A program made the position numbers and the translations under genes. 64,000 nt of DNA from Octopus sinensis (taxonomy: Eukaryota), in assembly GCF_006345805.1 (NCBI RefSeq), contig NC_043012.1:9176001-9240000 (forward strand), given 5' to 3'. Of the stretch, positions 14,841-54,486 are shown one piece after another; positions within the stretch are counted from its first letter, which is position 1, and every line of letters begins with the position of its first letter. The notes beneath the pieces were generated by a model. The model made no database searches. It had not been told where the DNA came from and was given only the letters and a program-made list of their open reading frames with translations.

Positions 14841-15237
14841 TGTTGTTTTAAATTTGCCACAGAAAGTGATATACGTTTGTGGTGGCTAATGGTGGTGGGA
14901 CGCCTGAGTGCCAAGGGTCGGCAGCCCGAAAAAGTTTGGGAACCACCGTTTTAAGTTTTACCAGGTCGTGATTGCCAGTCAGTGGGTATTGCACAGACGG
15001 GTACAAATGTATGTAATAATCAATATGAAAGTTTGTGGAAGAGTTTGATAAACTCAGTTGGTGTGTGAAATGAAGAATCTAACGTAGCGGGGCTTTTGAG
15101 TTTTAAAGATAGAAAAATAGAGAAATATAATGTTGTAGGTAAGTATGTAAGAAGAAATCGAAATGAAGGAGCGATATGAGGCCGAAAGGGAATAAGAATG
15201 GGAAAATCAAAAGAGAATAGAAAGAGAGATTCCCATA

Positions 15238-15662
15238 GGCGCAAGAGTGGCTGTGTGGTAAGTAGCTTGCTAACCAACCACATGGTTCTGGGTTCAATCC
15301 CACTGCGTGGCATCTTGGGCAAGTGTCTTCTGCTATAGCCCCGGGCCGACCAATGCCTTGTGAGTGGATTTGGTAGACGGAAACTGAAAGAAGCCGTCGT
15401 ATAGATATATATATATATTATATATATATATTATGTGTGTGTGTGTGTTTGTGTGTCTGTGTTTGTCCCCCTAGCATTGCTTGACACCGATGCTGGTGTG
15501 GTTTACGTCCCCGTAACTTAGCGGTTCGGCAAAAAGGGACGATAGAATAAGTACTGGACTTACAAAGAATAAGTCCCGGGGTCGATTTGCTCGACTAAAG
15601 GCGGTGCTCCAGCATGGCCGCAGTCAAATGGCTGAAACAAGTAAAAGAGTAAAAGAGTAAAG
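15238..15662 (+). mobile_element. SINE family A, full length
   Basis: Same sequence as 14019-14438. Confidence 0.92.
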
Positions 15663-16498
15663 AGAGAGAGAGAGAGAGAGAGAGTAAGGTGGTGTGAGAG
15701 GATGATAGGGTTAGAGAAAAGCAAGAAGGAAGAAGGTAGTAACCTTCTCGTTTCGTTCTCCTCGCTGACCCTCTCACACCGCATCTCTCTTTCTCTCTCT
15801 CTCGGCTTCTCCTTTCTCTCCGATAGAACTCCTCCGTTTATTTCATTTCATTGACTTCAATAAAACAAGACGTTTTTTTTTTCTTTTCATACTCAAAGGT
15901 GACTGTCTGAAGCCTTCGATTATTCATTATTCATAATTCCCCGTAAATAAACCCGACTTCAGAGTAATTGCCGCTGAAGCTGAACATCAGCAGATTGCAT
16001 TCAGTGTATGTATGTGTGCCCTGCTTGAGTGTACGCGTCTGTTTGTGCGCGCGTAGATAAAACAGCGAAATGTTCCTATATGTATATGTATCTGGTGACG
16101 GTGGGTTTATTAAGTGTGTATAATACATTACATGTACCTGGCTATGTAGCAACAGCCGGCTTTAATGCCTTTATTATTATGAAAGAACTCTGTGATAACA
16201 GCAGGGTGGACATAAGTGTATGGACAATGTAATTTATAATATAAAATATATAAAATATAATATATAAAATATAATATATAAAATATAATATATAAAATAA
16301 AATATAATAGAATACAACTTGTAATTTAGTTACAAGCCAGGTTGCCACAGGAATAATGTCTCAATATCTTAACCACGTTAGATTCCCATATTGCTATCAT
16401 CACGTTTAATGGTGTTTAAAGCTGCGTACATTTTGGTTTTAGGTCCCATAAAGTATCAATAAAGCATCATAAAACTGAAAATAACAACATATATATAC

Positions 16499-16572
<74 letters not shown>

Positions 16573-16575
16573 TCT

Positions 16576-16693
16576 TATATAGAAGGGGCTTCTACAGGAC
16601 TAGAACTGTTTCATTCAGAGAAATCTTCAGGAAGCTTCCTGAAGATTTCTCTTGAATGAAACAGTTCTAGTCCTGTAGAAGCTCCTTCTATAT
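16576..16693. ncRNA. Head-to-head palindromic pair of type I hammerhead ribozymes
   Basis: Plus: AGCTTC-CTGAAGA-TTTCTCTTGAAT-GAAA-CAG(TTCTAGTC)CTG-TA-GAAGCT then AATAAA; mirror copy on the minus strand; centre GAAGCTTC at 16631-16638. Confidence 0.78.
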
Positions 16694-16763
16694 AATAAAT
16701 TAATTTTACTCTACTATGTATTGAGTACCTTATTTACTGTGGTTAACCCCGAATCAACCCGGG

Positions 16764-16846
<83 letters not shown>

Positions 16847-17043
16847 GTATATTATATATATGTATGTATTAAATTTAATATAAACAGCTAGGCGCAATAT
16901 AATACCATAAAGGAGAAAAATTTATCGCCACTAATTGTGACTGGGGGCTGAAACACCTATATTGCAAGAAATAGAGTTAAAAACTCTTGATGCGTAAGAA
17001 GCGTGCAATACACACACACACACACACACACACAACACACACA

Positions 17044-17077
<34 letters not shown>

Positions 17078-17144
17078 TATATTATATATATATATATATA
17101 TATTATATGTATATATACATACATACATATAATACACACACACA

Positions 17145-17189
<45 letters not shown>

Positions 17190-17198
17190 ATATATATA

Positions 17199-18033
17199 CA
17201 GAGATGCGATGGGTAAATTGCCGCCATTTTATATTTTAAATTTCGCGAATGCGCACTGTTTGTTTTTGATTTTGTCGACTACACAGTATAGTAGGGTCAG
17301 TTGGGCACCGTTTGTATGAAAAACAAAACAATGACGCAATTCTATCTGCCAGAAATTTGCAAATGATATGATGCACTGCTTTGCATTCGTGCCGGAATCT
17401 CCAATATGAACATTTCAGAGTGTTTGGGTGTCAATCTGAGGACATGTACCGAGAGTGATATAAAATCAAAACCTCCAGTCAACATCATGGTGATGGCCGC
17501 GTTATGCTTTTCATTCATCTTCCCACACGGATTGAACAGGGAAGCCTACATAAAGTTCCTGGAGGAGGTAGTGCTGCTCTGGGTCAAGAGGGTGGCTGCT
17601 GGAAGACCTTATGACTGGCAACAGGATTATGCACCATACCATACAATGAGAACCCAGTCATGGGTATGAGACAATTTCTACCACCACATCGCCCCTAAAA
17701 TCTGGTCGCCTAACTCCCCAGACTTCAACCCCCTTAATTATAATGTGTAGGGTGCAGGTGAGCGAGAAACCAACAAAACTTCTTGTAACACCAAAGATGA
17801 ACTGAAGGCAAGGATTATGGCAGCATTCACCAACTTAAATAAAGTGACCGCGTCAGAAGAGTTGCAGGAGATTCCGACGTCGTCTGGAGGCCGTGGTTAA
17901 AGCCAATGGCGATTTTACTTTGGTATTTCAGGATATTTTTATGTAATTTTGGTAAATATATCTTTTAAAATGAGGTGTCAGTGTTATTTTCATTTTTGCA
18001 TAATTTAGACGACAGTTTATTCACCGCACCCAA
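17199..18033 (+). mobile_element. Degenerate maT/DD37D-like Tc1/mariner transposon
   Basis: WQQDYAPYHT...WSPNSPDFNPL(N)Y...RRRLEAVVKANGDF with about 36-37 residue spacing; imperfect TIRs gatgcgatgggtaaattgccg / cgacagtttattcaccgcacc; TA flanks. Confidence 0.8.
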
Positions 18034-18038
18034 TATAC

Positions 18039-18731
18039 ATTCTTTTATTCTTTTACTTGTTTCAGTTATTTGACTGCGGCCATGCTGGAGCACTGGCTTT
18101 AGTCGAGCAAATCGACCTCAGGACTTATTCTTTGTAAGCCTAGTACTTATTCTATCTGTTCTTTTGCCGAACCGCTAGGTTACTGGGACGTAAACTCACC
18201 AGCATAGGTTGTTAAGCGATGGTGGTGGGACAAACACACACAAACAAATACACACGCATACACACACAGACAGACAGACACACACATATATATATATATA
18301 TACACATGAATATATGAGTGGGTGTGTGGTAAGAAACTTGCTTCCTAACCACACGTTACCGGATTGAATCCTACTGCTTGACACCTTGGGTTAATGTCTT
18401 CTAATATAGCCTGGGGCCAACCAAAGCCTTGTGAGTGGGTTTGGAAGAGGGAAACTAAAAGAAGCCCGTCGTGTATATATATATGTGTGTGTGTCTGTGT
18501 GTATGTGTGTGTGTGTGTGTGCTTGCATGTCTGAGTTTCTCCCCCCCACCATCGCTTTGACAACCGATGTTGGTGTGTTTACGTTCCCGTAACTTGGCGG
18601 TTTGGCAAAAAATACCGACAGAAGAAGCACTAGGCCAACAAAGAATAAGTCCTGTGGTCGATTTATTTGACTAAACGCAGTGCTGCAGCATGGCCGCACT
18701 CAAATGACAGAAACAAGTAAACGAGTAAAAA
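18039..18731. mobile_element. Two family A SINEs (minus 3' half 18039-18300; plus diverged full 18312-18731)
   Basis: Sequence match to family A. Confidence 0.85.
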
Positions 18732-19343
18732 TAGTATATATATGTGCGTGTGTGTGTGTGTGGTGTGTGTGTGTGTGTGTGTGTGTGTGGTGTGTCTATG
18801 AACGCCTGCCTGCTAGTATATATACTGTGTGCCTGTACGTCTCTATTATATGTGCACCTCTATACGTGTGTGTGCGTCTTTGAGCGTGTAGTTGGACGTT
18901 TGTGTATATGTGAGTACATGCATTTTTAACTGTACGTATATATGCGTATGCTTTCCCTGTTTATCTGTGCATGTATATATGTGGGTGTGCGTGCGTGCGT
19001 GCGTGTTTGTATATATAGGTATATATAGTAGTCAAATGGTGTATGTATGTGTGCATGTGTATCGCTCTATATATTTATACGTTTGTATACTAGTCAGCTG
19101 TTATGAACAATTTAATTGAAATAAAAAGACTATATTAAACTGTAGCAAAAACAATAACATAAACACCTTCATCATTAACCTCCTCCTCCTCCTCCTCCTC
19201 CTTCTCCTCCTCCTCCTCCTCCTCATCATCATCATCATCATTATCATCATCATCATTATCATCATCATCATCATATCCACCACCACTACTACCCCACCAC
19301 CACCACCACCACCACCACCACCACCACCACCACCACCACTACC

Positions 19344-19375
<32 letters not shown>

Positions 19376-20037
19376 CGGTATAAAATAAGGATGAATAAGA
19401 AAAAAGGCGATGGTGGATCGGAGTGGAAGTTATGCTTCAATGTTTCTTAGATTTTTGTTGGTGGGCGGTATGAGAGGAGAGTCTTGGCAGAGAAAATAGT
19501 AACAGGTTTTTGTATCAAAAATCCACACGAAACTGGAAGCTTGCATTTTTATTCGGTACAGAAACAATCAATATTGCCACTAATCTAATATATAATACTC
19601 ACCGAAATTAAAGAACCGCAATATACGTACTTAGTGCCTCACTAATATCACAAACGCAGCAAAACAGCTGTTAGGTATATTAAATTCATGATAGCAACAG
19701 CAGAGCCATATTAAATTAGACCAAAATGTCTTTATTGAGTTGTCGCAAACTGCTTAAATCTTCACGTATCTTCCTCTCCCTCTCTCTCTCTCTATCTCTC
19801 TCTCTCTCTACACACATACACCTGCACCACACACATACATACACGAACACACTCATATGTAGGTATATACAAACATATATACAGCAGCACTCTTAGTTTT
19901 ACCCTGTTTTACATTCTTATTTTCCTCACTCCGCGGTTTATATACACACAAAGAATGTAAATATATCTTTAAATAGAAACATACCCACACCACACATAGA
20001 CGCAAACGTAGATACATGCATATATATCTATACATAA

Positions 20038-30425: not shown

Positions 30426-31077
30426 TATTACGCAACAAGAAGGTATACTGATATACAGCTCTGTATGTTTTTTTTGTTTAAACTCACCATTTTCCACTGT
30501 CTTTGGTCCCTGTTTGTATGATTCCCACTCCCTTTCTTAAGAAGTGTGCACCAGCTTATTTCTTAGAGTGTAGATGTTTCTATATCAATAGATGGACACT
30601 ATATTTTTTCCCGGAATCTACAAAATCGTAATTTTTCTGGAAAAACTGTTGCCGAACAGTTCCATAATGATATTCAAAGTAACAAAACAAGAGATTGAGA
30701 ATATATAAAAAAAACAGGAAATGTTGCAGAGGGAATGTAATATGGATTCTCTTTTACGAAGCTGAGCGTTCTCGAGGCTCAGAAATGGACAATAATGTCG
30801 TTGTTATGGTGACCAAACCAATTAAGCCAATTACTGATACTAGCAAACACAAAAGAAATACCACTAAGACTACTGGCACCACCATCACAACGACGGCGGC
30901 CACGACGACGACGACGACGACGACCACCACCACCACCACCACGGCCAACACTATCGCCATCACCACCATCACCCTCACCTCATCCACCATACCACCACAC
31001 TCATCAAGCCCACATCAACCACCATCAACATCAATACTTGCAACAACATTTACAGTGAGAACATAAAAGAAGTACTA

Positions 31078-31278
31078 GAGTTCTATATTTAAGAGATGAG
31101 GAATTATGTACATTATTTACTTTACTTACAATCAACGGATATTTGTCCTCATCTTGTTTGTTGTTAACACAGCGTTTCGGCTGATATACTCTCCAGCCTT
31201 CTTCAGGTGTCTTGGGGAAATTTCGAACCTGGGTTCTCATTCCTAAGGTATTTTTTGATAGTATTATTATTATTATTA

Positions 31279-31319
<41 letters not shown>

Positions 31320-31399
31320 GTGTTCAGGACACTGCCTGGAATCGAACTCGGAATCTTGGGGTTAGTAGCCCGCGCTCTTAACTACTACGCCATATTCCC
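31078..31399 (-). mobile_element. Composite element: tRNA-like Pol III head + (AAT)n + hammerhead-bearing PLE-like tail
   Basis: A box TGGCGTAGTAG (31392-31382); B box GAGTTCGATTCC (31349-31338); (AAT)n 31319-31263; HHR 31211-31166. Confidence 0.65.
31166..31211 (-). ncRNA. Minimal type I hammerhead (cleavage-site U mutated to C in this copy)
   Basis: ACAC-CTGAAGA-A-GGCTG(GAGAGTATAT)CAGCC-GAAA-CG-CT-GTGT. Confidence 0.7.
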
Positions 31400-31689
31400 G
31401 TAGGATGAAGGTATGGCGTAGTGAATATGGCGTAGGGGGTTAAAGACGTATATAAGAATTTCCCAGATTAACGACTATAAATAATACAACACTGATCTAG
31501 TTCACAACTGTATTCTCTGTTGCTTGTCCGATCCAGCTGTAGCAATAGCAATACAAAGAAGGCCAGCTTATTTGCATGGAGTGTTAGATGTGCTCCGGCT
31601 GCTGCTGCTGCTGCTGCGCAGGTACTCGATGAAGCTGCGCCACTCGCAGTGATTCTTACCTAGTGAATGGTTCATGCCATCCAACTGCA

Positions 31690-32960
31690 TCACACGATGA
31701 GATGGACGTCCCGGTTAAATTTCTCGGTGTATTGTTCGGTTCAGATCAATACAGAAGTGGGACGACGTGACGAGCAGAGTGGACAGGTGCACCCATAAAT
31801 AGGCAGAGACGACGTTATCCCTGAAAGGTCAGGCAAAGATGGCAAATTCACACATCATCTGCATCTCATACGAGGGGTTGCTGAAAAGTTCCTGGCTCTA
31901 AGGGTGTCGCGAAAGGCCTGGCTGGAGGCTTAACCTTCCGTGTTCTTTTATGGGGCTTAGAAAAACCGAAGGACTGCTGCAATAAGTGTGTGACTCTGAG
32001 AGGGGAATATGTTCAATAAAATTATAATTAACTGATCCTCCTGTATTTTCTTTTACTCAAAGCCAGGAACTTTTCAGCATCCCCCGTAACTTAGCGGTTC
32101 GGCAAAAGATATCGATAGTATAAGTACCAGACTTACACACATACACACACAAAAAATACTAGGGTCGATACATTCGACTATAAAATTCTTCAAGGCGGTG
32201 CCCCAACATGGCCACAGTCTAATGACTGAAACGAGTAAAAGATAAAATATAAAATAAAATCCCCTCGTATTTCCGCTAAACTCTTGTCCAAGTGTCAACA
32301 GCCGGGCCTACCAAAGATGTGCGCAGAGCGACGAAACTGTGCTCCCCGAACTCGTCTTGTGCCCTAGTATTGCTGAGATGAGTGTTTTTTTCGAATACCT
32401 TCTGTCGCGTATTGGACGAATCCTGCAATCGGCTGAGTCCGTTCTGAAGATCGTTTCGTCCCATTCCTTTGACTGGGTGGGACAGGCAGTGCTTACCTAT
32501 TTGATGGCCTTAGCAAAAGAGGTGATGTACTTGACCAGATTGAAAGAGCCAAAAACAGAAACCTTCCTCTTTGGTCAAGTTCTCATCAACATTTCCAAGT
32601 TCCATTTGTAGAGGAAACTGGGAATAGAGGGAAAGGCGTTGTTTTCCAGCAAATTTGATGAAAGGTGGTGAACGATGGTCCGAGTGCACAGGCCTGCTCT
32701 AAACATGTACTTATAAACCAAGGGACGAGGATGAGAATAGGGCACTTTCCTTAGTGGTCAGGGTAATTGTTGTTTTGTGAGGTGTCTTTGAGCAGCGCCT
32801 GGCAGTCTCCTCACTTGTGTTTGAATATTCACTTCTTCGTTTTTGGTAAATTTTCGTTTTCCGCCTTCATGTAACATCATATAATTTTGTATTGTGTCGT
32901 CCCGTACCGTCCTGTACCGTCCCCAATCTATTTGTAAACCCTTAGTGGTAAATATAAAAA
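31690..32960 (+). mobile_element. Degenerate L1/Tx1-like LINE 3' region, split by a MITE
   Basis: VKFLGVLFG...KWDDVTSRVD...LSLKGQAKMAN, and downstream MALAKEVMYLTRLK. Confidence 0.55.
31869..32269 (+). mobile_element. Mariner-derived MITE whose right TIR is split by a 5'-truncated family A SINE (~32074-32260)
   Basis: TIR tacgaggggttgctgaaaagttcctggct vs agccaggaacttttcagcatcccc[SINE]cccctcgta; internal NKCVTLRGEYVQ* resembles a mariner C-terminus. Confidence 0.8.
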
Positions 32961-39925: not shown

Positions 39926-40730
39926 AAGGTGGCAAGCTGGCAGAATCGCTAGCATGCCGGGCGAAATGCTTAGCGGTATTTCGTCTGCCGTTACGTTCTG
40001 AGTTCAAATACCGCCAAGGTTGACTTTGCCTTTCATCCTTTCGGGGTCGATAAATTAAGTACCAGTTACGCACTAGGGTCGATATAATCGATTTAATCCG
40101 TTTGTCTGTCCTTGTTTGTCCTCTCTATGTTTAGCCCCTTGTGGGTAGTAAAGAAATCGGTATTTCGTCTGCCGTTACGTTCTGAGTTCAAATTCCGTCG
40201 AGGTCGACTTTGCCTTTCATCCTTTCGGGGTCGATAAATTAAGTACCAGTTACGCACTGGGGTCGATATAATCGACTTAATCCGTTTGTCTGTCCTTGTT
40301 TGTGATCTCTGTGTTTAGCCCCTTGTGGGTAGTAAAGAAATAGGTATTTCGTCTGTCTTTACGTTCTGAGTTCAAATGTCACCGATGTCGACTTTGCCTT
40401 TCATCCTTTCGGGGTCGATAAATTAACTACCAGTCAAGTGCTGGGGTCGATGTAATCGACTCATCCCAACCCCCCACAAAATTTCAGGTATTGTGCCTAT
40501 AGTAGAAAGGATTATTATTATCAGGCTGACGGACAGTAGAATTGTGAGAGCGCCGGACAAAATTCTTTGCGACGTTTGTGCAGGTATTTTATGTTCTGAG
40601 TTCAAATCCTGCTGAAGGCAATTTTGCTTTATATCCTTACACAGTCGCCATAAATAAAATACCAGGACTATGGTCAATGCTATCGGTTAACTCCTTCACT
40701 CAAAATTGCAGGCCTTGCAAATAAATTTGA
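39926..40730 (+). mobile_element. Family C SINE tandem array (184-bp period) plus older copies
   Basis: GGTATTTCGTC restarts at 39975, 40159 and 40343. Confidence 0.9.
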
Positions 40731-42130: not shown

Positions 42131-42546
42131 ATTTCTTTACTACCCACAAGGGGCTAAACACAGAGGGGACAAACAAGGACAGACAAAAGGATTAAGTCGG
42201 TTACATCGACCCCAGTGCGTAATTGGTACTTAATTTATCGACCCCGAAAGGTTGAAAGGCACAGTCGACCTCGGCGGAATTTGAACTCAGAACGTAGCGG
42301 CAGACGGAATACCTATTTCTTTACTACCCACAAGGGGCTAAACACAGAGAGGACAAACAAAGACAGACAAACGGATTAAGTCGATTATATCGACCCCAGT
42401 GCGTAACTGGTACTTATTTAATCGACCCCGAAAGTATGAAAGGCAAATTCGACCTCGGCGGAATTTGAACTCGGAACGTAACGGCAGACGAAATACCGCT
42501 AAGCATCTCGCCCGGCGCGCTAAAGTTTCTGCCAGCTCGCCGCCTT
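42131..42546 (-). mobile_element. Family C SINE dimer
   Basis: Head plus two bodies; junction AAGAAATA|GGTATT at about 42312. Confidence 0.9.
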
Positions 42547-53727: not shown

Positions 53728-54177
53728 AGAAGGCAGCGAGCTGGCAGCAACGTTAGCACACCGGGTGAAATGCTTTGTGGTATTTCGTCCGCTGCTGCGT
53801 TCTGAGTTCAAATTCCGCCGAGGTCGACTTTGCCTTTCATCCTTTCGGTGTCGATTAAATAACTACCAGTTACGCACTGGGGTCGATATAATCGACTTAG
53901 TCCGTTTGTTTGTCCTTGTTTGTACCTTCTATGTTTAGCCCCTTGTGGGCAGTAAAGAAATAGGTATTTCGTCTGTGGGTCAGTAAAGAAATAGGTATTT
54001 CGTTTGCCGCTACGTTCTGAGTTCAAATTCCGCCGAGGTCGACTTTGCCTTCCATCCTTTCGAGGACGATTAAATAAGTACCAGTTACGCACTGTGGTTG
54101 ATATAATCGACTTAATCCGTTTGTCTGTCCTTGTTTGTCCTCTCTGTGTTTAGCTCTTTGTGGGTAGCAAAGAAATA
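53728..54177 (+). mobile_element. Family C SINE dimer bounded by one 16-bp TSD
   Basis: GGTAATTTACATGAAC at 53712-53727 and 54178-54193. Confidence 0.92.
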
Positions 54178-54486
54178 GGTAATTTACATGAACCGTAGTG
54201 AAGTCAGCATAGTAATCTCAACTCTGCAATATAGATTTATATTCTTTAGTCTTGAATACTTTCCCTCCTATTTGTATACTCAGTGACACCCCCTCCCGTA
54301 TCTATATGTATTAGTGTGTGCCTATGTGTAATTAATTGTGTGTAGTATGTGGTATTAGATCAAAAGTAACACAAAATTGTAAATGATTGAGTAGTCACTA
54401 AACATTATTTAATAAGTTATCTCTTTCTCTCTATCTGCCCACCTACCGATCTATCTATATATATATATATATATATATATATCTTC

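What the first reader, a model, noticed from the sequence alone, without database searches (positions are those of the whole stretch)
31078..31449. Candidate tRNA-headed SINE carrying a Penelope-type hammerhead ribozyme tail
Seen: on the minus strand, one colinear unit made of a tRNA-like head with A/B boxes, an (AAT)n linker, a minimal type I HHR (short palindromic-type stem III, A inserted after the core), then ATG...GTAAGT...ATAG. The head is duplicated in inverted orientation just upstream (31412-31449). Established: minimal HHRs and inverted 5' duplications are hallmarks of PLEs; SINEs borrow the 3' end of their autonomous partner; Schistosoma Sm-alpha is a Pol III repeat with an HHR. Inference: a SINE mobilised by a PLE rather than a LINE.
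Basis: partly seen in the sequence, partly recalled or inferred. Interest (0 to 1): 0.9.

Follow-up and report, generated by a model that had tools for sequence, protein, structure and literature searches.

The report
Penelope retroelement with built-in tRNA promoter
This repeat is the end piece of a protein-coding jumping gene that has taken up a tRNA-type promoter, so the end piece seems to copy itself by the thousands like a SINE, and the same promoter may even drive the whole jumping gene.

Summary
The unit is real and repeated: 4,938 exact hits for a head 20-mer, and 77 of 90 sampled heads have the hammerhead (HHR) tail colinear. It is not a separate SINE that borrowed a tail. The whole head-(AAT)n-HHR unit is the pseudo-LTR of a Penelope/Poseidon-type element: it follows the ORF stop by 29 nt in 24 of 29 endonuclease loci, and the 'tail' is the start of the 838-codon ORF. 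Yet most copies begin at the tRNA-like head: 48 of 86 5' ends lie at -17..+5, about 13 times the upstream truncation rate. They end at two sites about 36 nt apart, the PLE signature. No diagnostic variant separates short from long copies. The majority 2.5-kb unit has no TTTT run; only 1 of 71 related PLE segments lacks one. Best reading (0.6): a PLE that captured a Pol III promoter, making its terminal repeat a built-in SINE. Pol III activity is untested and RNA-seq was uninformative. This copy's HHR carries a U16.1-to-C change; the family core is intact. Eight paper searches found no such element. The scan noted a different tRNA-bearing, PLE-patterned repeat elsewhere (e1-7810660).

The parts
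31411..31446 (+). Two short nested inverted copies of the first ~25 nt of the head (PLE-type 5' inversion)
   Evidence: pair I2 (13-nt arms 31385-31397 / 31423-31435, 100%); the longer copy shares this copy's variant at head +4
31324..31404 (-). tRNA-derived head with 5 nt of leader; tRNA +1 at 31399; in the autonomous element it starts 29 nt after the ORF stop codon
   Evidence: aligns end to end with the genome's own tRNAs (39-47 of 73 identical, best tRNA-Arg-TCT among 15 distinct genes); not called by ARAGORN
31382..31392 (-). A box (one departure from the family majority in this copy)
   Evidence: box consensus recalled
31338..31349 (-). B box
   Evidence: box consensus recalled
31262..31323 (-). 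(AAT)n linker of variable length, part of the autonomous element's pseudo-LTR
31241..31261 (-). Conserved leader between the AAT tract and the first in-frame ATG
   Evidence: 8,800 exact hits for a 20-mer here
31079..31240 (-). First ~54 codons of the PLE ORF (ATG at 31240), open in this copy; contains the HHR and both preferred 3' ends
   Evidence: translation; same stretch runs straight into the RT ORF in full-length copies
31166..31211 (-). Minimal type I hammerhead inside the coding sequence; extra A at 31199; U16.1 changed to C at 31172; putative cleavage after 31171
   Evidence: architecture as in PMC4209133
31083..31152 (-). Second ATG (31152) and a possible 47-nt GT..AG intron (31129-31083) that would rejoin the main frame; unproven
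   Evidence: no such joint among the 15 joints listed of 50
31076..31080 (-). 3' end of this copy, at the distal of the family's two preferred 3' ends (about ORF nt 165)

Best explanation
The 330-nt unit is a solo pseudo-LTR of an endonuclease-bearing Penelope/Poseidon retrotransposon whose master copy carries a tRNA-derived type 2 Pol III promoter between the ORF stop and the HHR. SHOWN: the element's layout is [head-(AAT)n-ATG-HHR] ORF (RT, GIY-YIG) [head-(AAT)n-ATG-HHR-first ~130 or ~165 nt of ORF]; most copies start at the head. INFERRED: Pol III starts a few bases upstream of the head. The RNA then holds the ORF-start region where the PLE protein binds and starts reverse transcription at one of two internal sites, as shown in vitro for the anole Poseidon. 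The endonuclease cuts AT-rich DNA, reverse transcription runs to the RNA 5' end, and cDNA ends join by microhomology or through the short palindrome at the head, giving the inversions. Every solo pseudo-LTR thus has promoter plus RT-recognition site and can act as a SINE of the same family. INFERRED, weaker: because the 2.5-kb unit has no T4 run, the same promoter may also make the full-length, protein-coding RNA. The HHR is inherited from the PLE, probably needs a dimer or the protein, and is probably impaired in this copy.
For: Linkage: head colinear ~170 nt after the endonuclease match in 24 of 29 loci found by a protein search; tail runs into the ORF in L113, L120, L127, L139; 52 exact hits span that junction. 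Step at the head: exact 20-mer counts are 831 at -145, 896 at -27, 4,938 inside the head, 8,800 after the AAT tract. In 86 genome-order loci (90 less 4 duplicates) 48 5' ends lie at -17..+5; rate 0.043 per nt against 0.003 upstream and 0.007 at +6..+27. The pile-up holds without inversions: 18 of 43 non-inverted copies end at -8..+5, against 18 over the next 550 nt. Six of 30 junction loci are partial tandems in which an ORF fragment is joined to a unit starting at -7..+6 of the head. PLE signature: 3' ends near tail 148 or 184 in 38 of 41 short and 18 of 20 long copies, matching the 30-40 bp optional 'tail' between two RT start sites in PMC11167929. T4: 0 in 2,546 nt of the majority unit (codon shuffles mean 2.9-3.0, P 0.02-0.03); 10 in 2,064 nt of another PLE family of this genome with similar T content (binomial P 3.5e-4); single copies 0.38 per kb over 87 kb against a median of 3.9 per kb in 71 related PLE segments, 1 of which had none.
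Against: No direct evidence of Pol III transcription. Three RNA-seq runs of one study show both strands equally, no sharp starts or ends, and about 100-fold lower depth in the ORF beyond the pseudo-LTR, as expected from copies embedded in host transcripts. The 29-nt spacer can pair with the head (-17.2 kcal/mol over 60 nt), so a structure-driven truncation hot spot is possible. The T4 deficit is modest against codon shuffles, G4 runs are also absent, the protein and its closest relatives are Phe-poor (2.2-2.5%), and one relative without a tRNA module also has no T4 in 1,980 nt of ORF, though its 3' UTR has several (L325). Tail-only copies outnumber head-bearing ones (8,800 vs 4,938; only 8 of 29 best tail hits have a colinear head), so ordinary 5' truncation at the AAT tract is also common. 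Copies are 6-7% diverged at non-CpG sites, so the family may be inactive.
Confidence: 0.6

Rival explanations
1. Ordinary 5'-truncated PLE copies. The tRNA module is a passive relic of an old insertion, the element is transcribed by Pol II, and cDNAs stop or switch template at the head because of the palindrome and hairpin there, or because a tRNA-processing nuclease cuts the RNA.
For: Spacer and head form a hairpin; many junctions are inversions centred on the palindrome (loose ends); no diagnostic base and similar divergence in short and long copies (6.2 vs 7.2%, P 0.18).
Against: An RT should stall on entering a hairpin from its 3' foot (+17..+30; recalled), where the rate is only 0.007 per nt; 18 non-inverted copies still end at -8..+5; the ends spread on both sides of +1 and the acceptor stem is degenerate, which fits RNase P poorly; the T4 deficit has no explanation under Pol II.
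Confidence: 0.27
2. A true, independent SINE family: short copies descend from their own master loci, and the ORF-linked form arose when such a SINE was inserted behind the ORF stop and replaced the 3' UTR.
For: The spacer resembles a decayed inverted copy of the head's first 27 nt (shuffle P 0.055), as if the master formed by a head-first insertion with its 5' inversion; related PLEs have a T-rich 3' UTR and no B box within 350 nt upstream of the HHR (0 of 29 HHR hits); short copies outnumber long ones about five to one.
Against: No position distinguishes 48 short from 22 long copies beyond nominal P values (smallest 0.023, uncorrected, over about 260 positions); every part of the short unit is in the autonomous element. 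This may describe the origin, but not a separate lineage today.
Confidence: 0.11
3. Chance adjacency: a tRNA SINE with an (AAT)n tail into which a PLE end inserted at this one locus.
For: The anole Poseidon endonuclease prefers ATT; an earlier scan note reports such a one-off chimera in another genome (e1-7811937, unchecked).
Against: 77 of 90 heads have the same tail colinear; the 13 without it share no other body.
Confidence: 0.02

Closest known systems
Penelope/Poseidon PLEs, especially Poseidon of Anolis carolinensis (PAc; PMC11167929, parts 1-2 of 4 read)
   Same: Single RT plus C-terminal GIY-YIG ORF, pseudo-LTRs, partial tandems and inversions, HHR overlapping the ORF start, two 3' ends inside the first ~170 nt of the ORF.
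   Different: The pseudo-LTR here holds a tRNA-derived A/B-box module and an (AAT)n tract; most copies start at that module; the unit lacks T4 runs. The promoter described for Penelope overlaps a spliceosomal intron (PMC8557442, passages).
tRNA-derived SINEs (definition in SINEBase, PMC3531059, passages)
   Same: Short (<700 bp) copies, tRNA-derived head, internal A and B boxes, no coding capacity, RT-recognition region from an autonomous element.
   Different: Partner is a PLE, not a LINE; no 3' simple-repeat tail (the repeat is internal); the autonomous element contains the whole unit; no separate lineage detected.
Cassandra, Helenus, Ajax ('TRIMp3'; PMC10886601, passages)
   Same: A small-RNA-derived Pol III promoter inside a terminal repeat, proposed to come from a SINE insertion.
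   Different: Those are non-autonomous LTR elements, and that paper argues their autonomous partners must use Pol II. Here the module sits in the terminal repeat of the protein-coding element itself.
Schistosoma Sm-alpha / Sj-alpha and non-LTR retrozymes (PMC6765202, PMC7229834, PMC4918200, passages)
   Same: Pol III or tRNA sequence together with a type I HHR in a short repeat; PLEs proposed as the mobiliser.
   Different: Those carry canonical HHRs, occur as tandem repeats, and their partner is only proposed. Here the HHR is the minimal PLE type, copies are dispersed, and the partner is identified by contiguous sequence.
Non-autonomous Chlamys elements such as MRC1 (PMC8557442, passages)
   Same: Short elements mobilised by a PLE and sharing its 3' end.
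   Different: No tRNA head is mentioned in the passages read; they are distinct families rather than the pseudo-LTR itself.

Membership tests
EN+ PLE, Penelope/Poseidon clade | Single ORF with RT followed by a C-terminal GIY-YIG endonuclease | tested here: met
   551-aa open frame in L094; majority frame open for 838 codons; relatives at 56-68% identity hit RVT_1 at E 1e-11 and GIY-YIG weakly (E 0.23); L094 itself hit no Pfam model
EN+ PLE, Penelope/Poseidon clade | DKG motif; two Cys inside the GIY-YIG core with downstream His (CCHH); no extra CX2-5CxxC finger in the RT-EN linker | tested here: met
   against the criteria in PMC8557442; no tree with named Poseidon references was built
EN+ PLE, Penelope/Poseidon clade | Pseudo-LTRs with partial-tandem and inverted copies | tested here: met
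   L139, L266, L271 direct; inverted 5' pieces in 45 of 90 loci
EN+ PLE, Penelope/Poseidon clade | Optional 30-40 bp 3' 'tail' (two 3' ends) | tested here: met
   3' ends cluster near tail positions 148 and 184
EN+ PLE, Penelope/Poseidon clade | Minimal HHR in the pseudo-LTR | tested here: met
   family majority intact; this copy has U16.1 changed to C
EN+ PLE, Penelope/Poseidon clade | Spliceosomal intron near the 5' end (present in some) | tested here: inconclusive
   a 47-nt GT..AG would rejoin the frame, but the frame is open without it and no such joint is among those listed (low depth on the ORF side)
SINE (SINEBase definition) | Short (<700 bp), non-coding, head derived from a Pol III RNA | tested here: met
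   about 270-330 nt; head aligns to host tRNAs with A and B boxes
SINE (SINEBase definition) | Transcribed by Pol III from the internal promoter | not testable with these tools
   indirect only: 5' ends pile up at -17..+5, no T4 in the unit; RNA-seq uninformative
SINE (SINEBase definition) | Reverse transcribed by a partner LINE | tested here: not met
   the contiguous partner is a PLE and the insertion marks are PLE-type
SINE (SINEBase definition) | 3' tail of simple repeats | tested here: not met
   copies end inside ORF sequence; the (AAT)n is internal
SINE (SINEBase definition) | A family distinct from its autonomous partner | tested here: not met
   no diagnostic base between 48 short and 22 long copies; small sample from one contig
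PLE minimal hammerhead | Core CUGANGA / GAAAC-GUH, extra base between 9 and 10.1, G10.1-C11.1, palindromic 15.2-16.2 | tested here: met
   met by the family majority (criteria from PMC4209133); not met at 16.1 in the window copy
PLE minimal hammerhead | Self-cleavage (dimeric or protein-assisted) | not testable with these tools
   no sharp RNA ends
Non-LTR retrozyme | Canonical type I HHR in short tandem repeats | tested here: not met
   minimal HHR; dispersed, 5'-truncated or inverted copies

The most novel reading that the evidence does not exclude
An autonomous, protein-coding retrotransposon transcribed end to end by RNA polymerase III: the captured tRNA promoter drives both the short SINE-like RNA and the 2.8-kb coding RNA, the ORF has been purged of T4 terminators, and the uncapped RNA is translated unspliced from the ATG upstream of the hammerhead, possibly helped by the A-rich (AAU/AAC)n leader. 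It would also show a SINE and its partner as one element.
Probability: 0.3. Interest if true: 0.9.

Novelty: new variant of a known kind. Interest (0 to 1): 0.72.

Why it matters
SINEs are defined as LINE-dependent, and PLEs as partners of Pol III/HHR repeats have so far only been proposed in the papers read. Here the partner is physically contiguous with the SINE-like unit, and thousands of short copies carry the two-site PLE 3' signature. It offers a direct route for the birth of a SINE: a Pol III promoter captured in a terminal repeat that already holds the RT-recognition site. It also makes two open questions testable in one family: what promoter drives a PLE, and whether Pol III can make the coding RNA of an autonomous retrotransposon. 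Practically, short copies would be annotated as tRNA-SINEs and long ones as Penelope, hiding that they are one element.

Tried and rejected
Rfam at the gathering score and ARAGORN found nothing in the window; ARAGORN also found nothing in 4 of 4 other family loci. Pfam gave no family for the L094 protein and PDB only weak RT hits (E 0.14 or worse). Sequencing runs: no RNA holder listed on record. Reads of three RNA runs and contigs of one guessed-RNA run were laid on L274: no sharp start or end, no strand bias, no GT..AG joint among the 15 of 50 joints shown; this does not test Pol III. The parent tRNA was not fixed: only 15 distinct genes were compared, and the margin is small (47 vs 46 of 73). 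A search for a tRNA module in relatives found no A+B box pair in 80 metagenome PLE loci and no B box upstream of 29 HHR hits; DNA of the closest relatives (P0001, P0003, P0005) could not be fetched, so whether they share the module is open. No diagnostic variants for a short-copy subfamily. The intron reading was considered and left unproven. One locus (L079) was wrongly oriented, so the endonuclease-linkage count is taken. Target-site duplications were not examined. Eight paper searches found no PLE with a tRNA-derived promoter and no PLE-mobilised SINE; Repbase, Dfam, subscription papers (including Ohshima and Okada 1994 on octopus SINEs, seen only as a reference title) and supplements were not seen, so the family may already be deposited there.

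Full report
Setting. The window is G000:C16:9176001-9240000 in a 2.72-Gb genome. I take it to be an octopus from recalled SINE sequence and genome size; this was not tested.

Observation. The parts are in place on the minus strand: inverted head fragments (31411-31446), a tRNA-like head (+1 at 31399; A box 31392-31382; B box 31349-31338), (AAT)n (31323-31262) and a tail ending at about 31078 that holds a minimal type I hammerhead (31211-31166; stems I and II fold). Rfam and ARAGORN call nothing. The head aligns end to end with the genome's own tRNAs at 39-47 of 73 identities, best tRNA-Arg-TCT among 15 distinct genes; the parent is not fixed. This copy departs from the family at three points of interest: GTAAGT for the majority GTAAAT, one A-box base, and U16.1 to C in the HHR. 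The family core is intact, with most losses at CpG sites.

It is a family. An exact head 20-mer occurs 4,938 times; at 6-7% divergence that implies very roughly 15,000-20,000 heads (inference). Of the first 90 hits in genome order, 77 have the tail colinear; the other 13 stop in or near the AAT tract and share no other body. Chance adjacency is excluded.

The autonomous element contains the whole unit. One tail locus (L016) had a GIY-YIG fragment upstream. Searching the genome with that protein gave 29 further loci, of which 24 carry the head about 170 nt downstream, colinear (one only as a 24-nt piece), mostly followed by (AAT)n and the tail; three more join to the tail without the head, and two have neither. 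Walking upstream showed the tail running straight into the ORF in L113, L120, L127 and L139; L139 is a pseudo-LTR-ORF-pseudo-LTR partial tandem. The majority frame is open for 838 codons from the ATG that corresponds to 31240, and the stop lies 29 nt before the next head. So the 'tail' is the start of the ORF, with the HHR inside coding sequence, as in the anole Poseidon (PMC11167929). Relatives P0003 and P0149 begin with a homologous extension through the HHR-encoded residues, which favours this ATG over the ATG-plus-intron reading, although that splice would also rejoin the frame. The protein has DKG, YVDD, the Cys pair inside GIY-YIG and no linker zinc finger, which fits Penelope/Poseidon by the criteria in PMC8557442. 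Its named relatives include barnacle proteins in a cluster at 53% identity.

Most copies start at the head. Exact 20-mer counts along the element are 831 (-145), 896 (-27), 4,938 (head) and 8,800 (after the AAT tract); only 52 hits span the tail-ORF junction (a 22-mer). Among 86 loci (90 less L157, L169, L171, L172 as duplicates), 5' ends fall at +6..+27 in 12, -17..+5 in 48, -18..-200 in 12 and further up in 14. Rates per nt are 0.007, 0.043, 0.003 and 0.003. Ends scored at -12..-17 are mostly inversions centred on a short palindrome at the head. Among 43 non-inverted copies, 18 still end at -8..+5. In six of 30 junction loci an ORF fragment is joined to a unit starting at -7..+6. A Pol III start a few bases upstream of the mature tRNA 5' end (recalled) would give this pattern.

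PLE mobilisation of short copies. 3' ends cluster near tail positions 148 and 184 (about ORF nt 129 and 165): 21 and 17 of 41 short copies, 12 and 6 of 20 long copies. This matches the optional 30-40 bp tail between two RT start sites (PMC11167929; PMC8557442). Inverted 5' pieces were flagged in 27 of 48 short and 4 of 22 long copies. No base distinguishes short from long copies (smallest P 0.023, uncorrected), and divergence is similar (6.2 vs 7.2%).

T4 runs. The majority unit has none in 2,546 nt (codon-shuffle mean 2.9-3.0, P 0.02-0.03). A second PLE family of this genome with similar T content has 10 in 2,064 nt. Single copies of the target family carry 0.38 per kb (33 in 87 kb), against a median of 3.9 per kb in 71 related PLE segments of at least 1,200 nt from 80 metagenome loci; 1 of 71 had none, and 1 of 45 at 19-25% T. 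Against this: G4 is also absent, the protein and its nearest relatives are Phe-poor, and the one T4-free relative has no tRNA module, although its 3' UTR is T-rich. The signal is suggestive only.

RNA. Three raw RNA runs of one study (coded organism B, about 6% of each read) cover the pseudo-LTR at depths of about 1,000-1,800 per mate direction and the ORF beyond at under 20, on both strands equally, with no sharp starts or ends and no GT..AG joint among 15 of 50 joints shown. Loose ends fall at the first 3' end site and at the head palindrome. This mirrors copy number in host transcripts and neither supports nor refutes Pol III.

Mechanism and rivals. Best reading (0.6): a PLE with a captured Pol III promoter whose solo pseudo-LTR acts as a built-in SINE. 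The main rival (0.27) is structure-driven truncation: spacer and head can form a -17.2 kcal/mol hairpin. An independent SINE lineage (0.11) is not seen today but may describe the origin, since the spacer looks like a decayed inverted copy of the head start (P 0.055) and relatives lack the module (0 of 29 HHR hits with a B box upstream).

Literature. Read: PMC11167929 and PMC4209133 (parts 1-2 of 4 each); passages of PMC8557442, PMC10886601, PMC3531059, PMC6765202, PMC7229834, PMC4918200, PMC8969392 and PMC6962438. Closest are Poseidon PAc, tRNA SINEs, Cassandra/Helenus/Ajax and Schistosoma Sm-alpha. Eight searches found no PLE with a tRNA-derived promoter; Repbase, Dfam, supplements and subscription papers were not seen.

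Verdict. Observation confirmed; interpretation partly supported. By the SINEBase definition it is not a SINE family, but the short copies appear to work like SINEs driven by a PLE. New variant of a known kind; interest 0.72.

Noticed in passing
window 31874-32084: 29-nt inverted repeats (90% complementary) 153 nt apart; looks like a small terminal-inverted-repeat DNA transposon (mariner-like, label recalled).
   Followed up: no
window 39974-40461, 42131-42497, 53779-54181: Head-to-tail arrays (period 184-215) of a different abundant SINE-like repeat; tandem arrangement is unusual for a SINE and was not examined.
   Followed up: no
L059:10-247 and L291-L320: A second, younger PLE family (Neptune-like, label recalled) with open frames up to 796 aa; a different minimal HHR lies in L059; used only as the T4 control.
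   Followed up: partly
L091-L093 (G000 C9560 and C4:104.35 Mb): A complex insertion of this family (ORF fragment flanked by inverted pseudo-LTRs) is itself repeated in a 4.6-kb tandem array.
   Followed up: partly
head, about +6 to +14 (window 31393-31385): The A box contains ATG followed after one codon by a stop: a two-codon upstream ORF in any head-initiated RNA.
   Followed up: no
window 31240-31218 and 31152-31130: The two candidate start codons open similar peptides (both Met-Arg-Thr), possibly an old short duplication.
   Followed up: no
P0006 cluster: Close protein relatives (53% identity) are barnacle proteins, nearer than the other PLE family of this genome; possible horizontal transfer among marine animals.
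   Followed up: no
L103: LTR-retrotransposon-like protease/RT frame of 562 aa and a 449-aa gag-like frame next to the 4.6-kb array.
   Followed up: no
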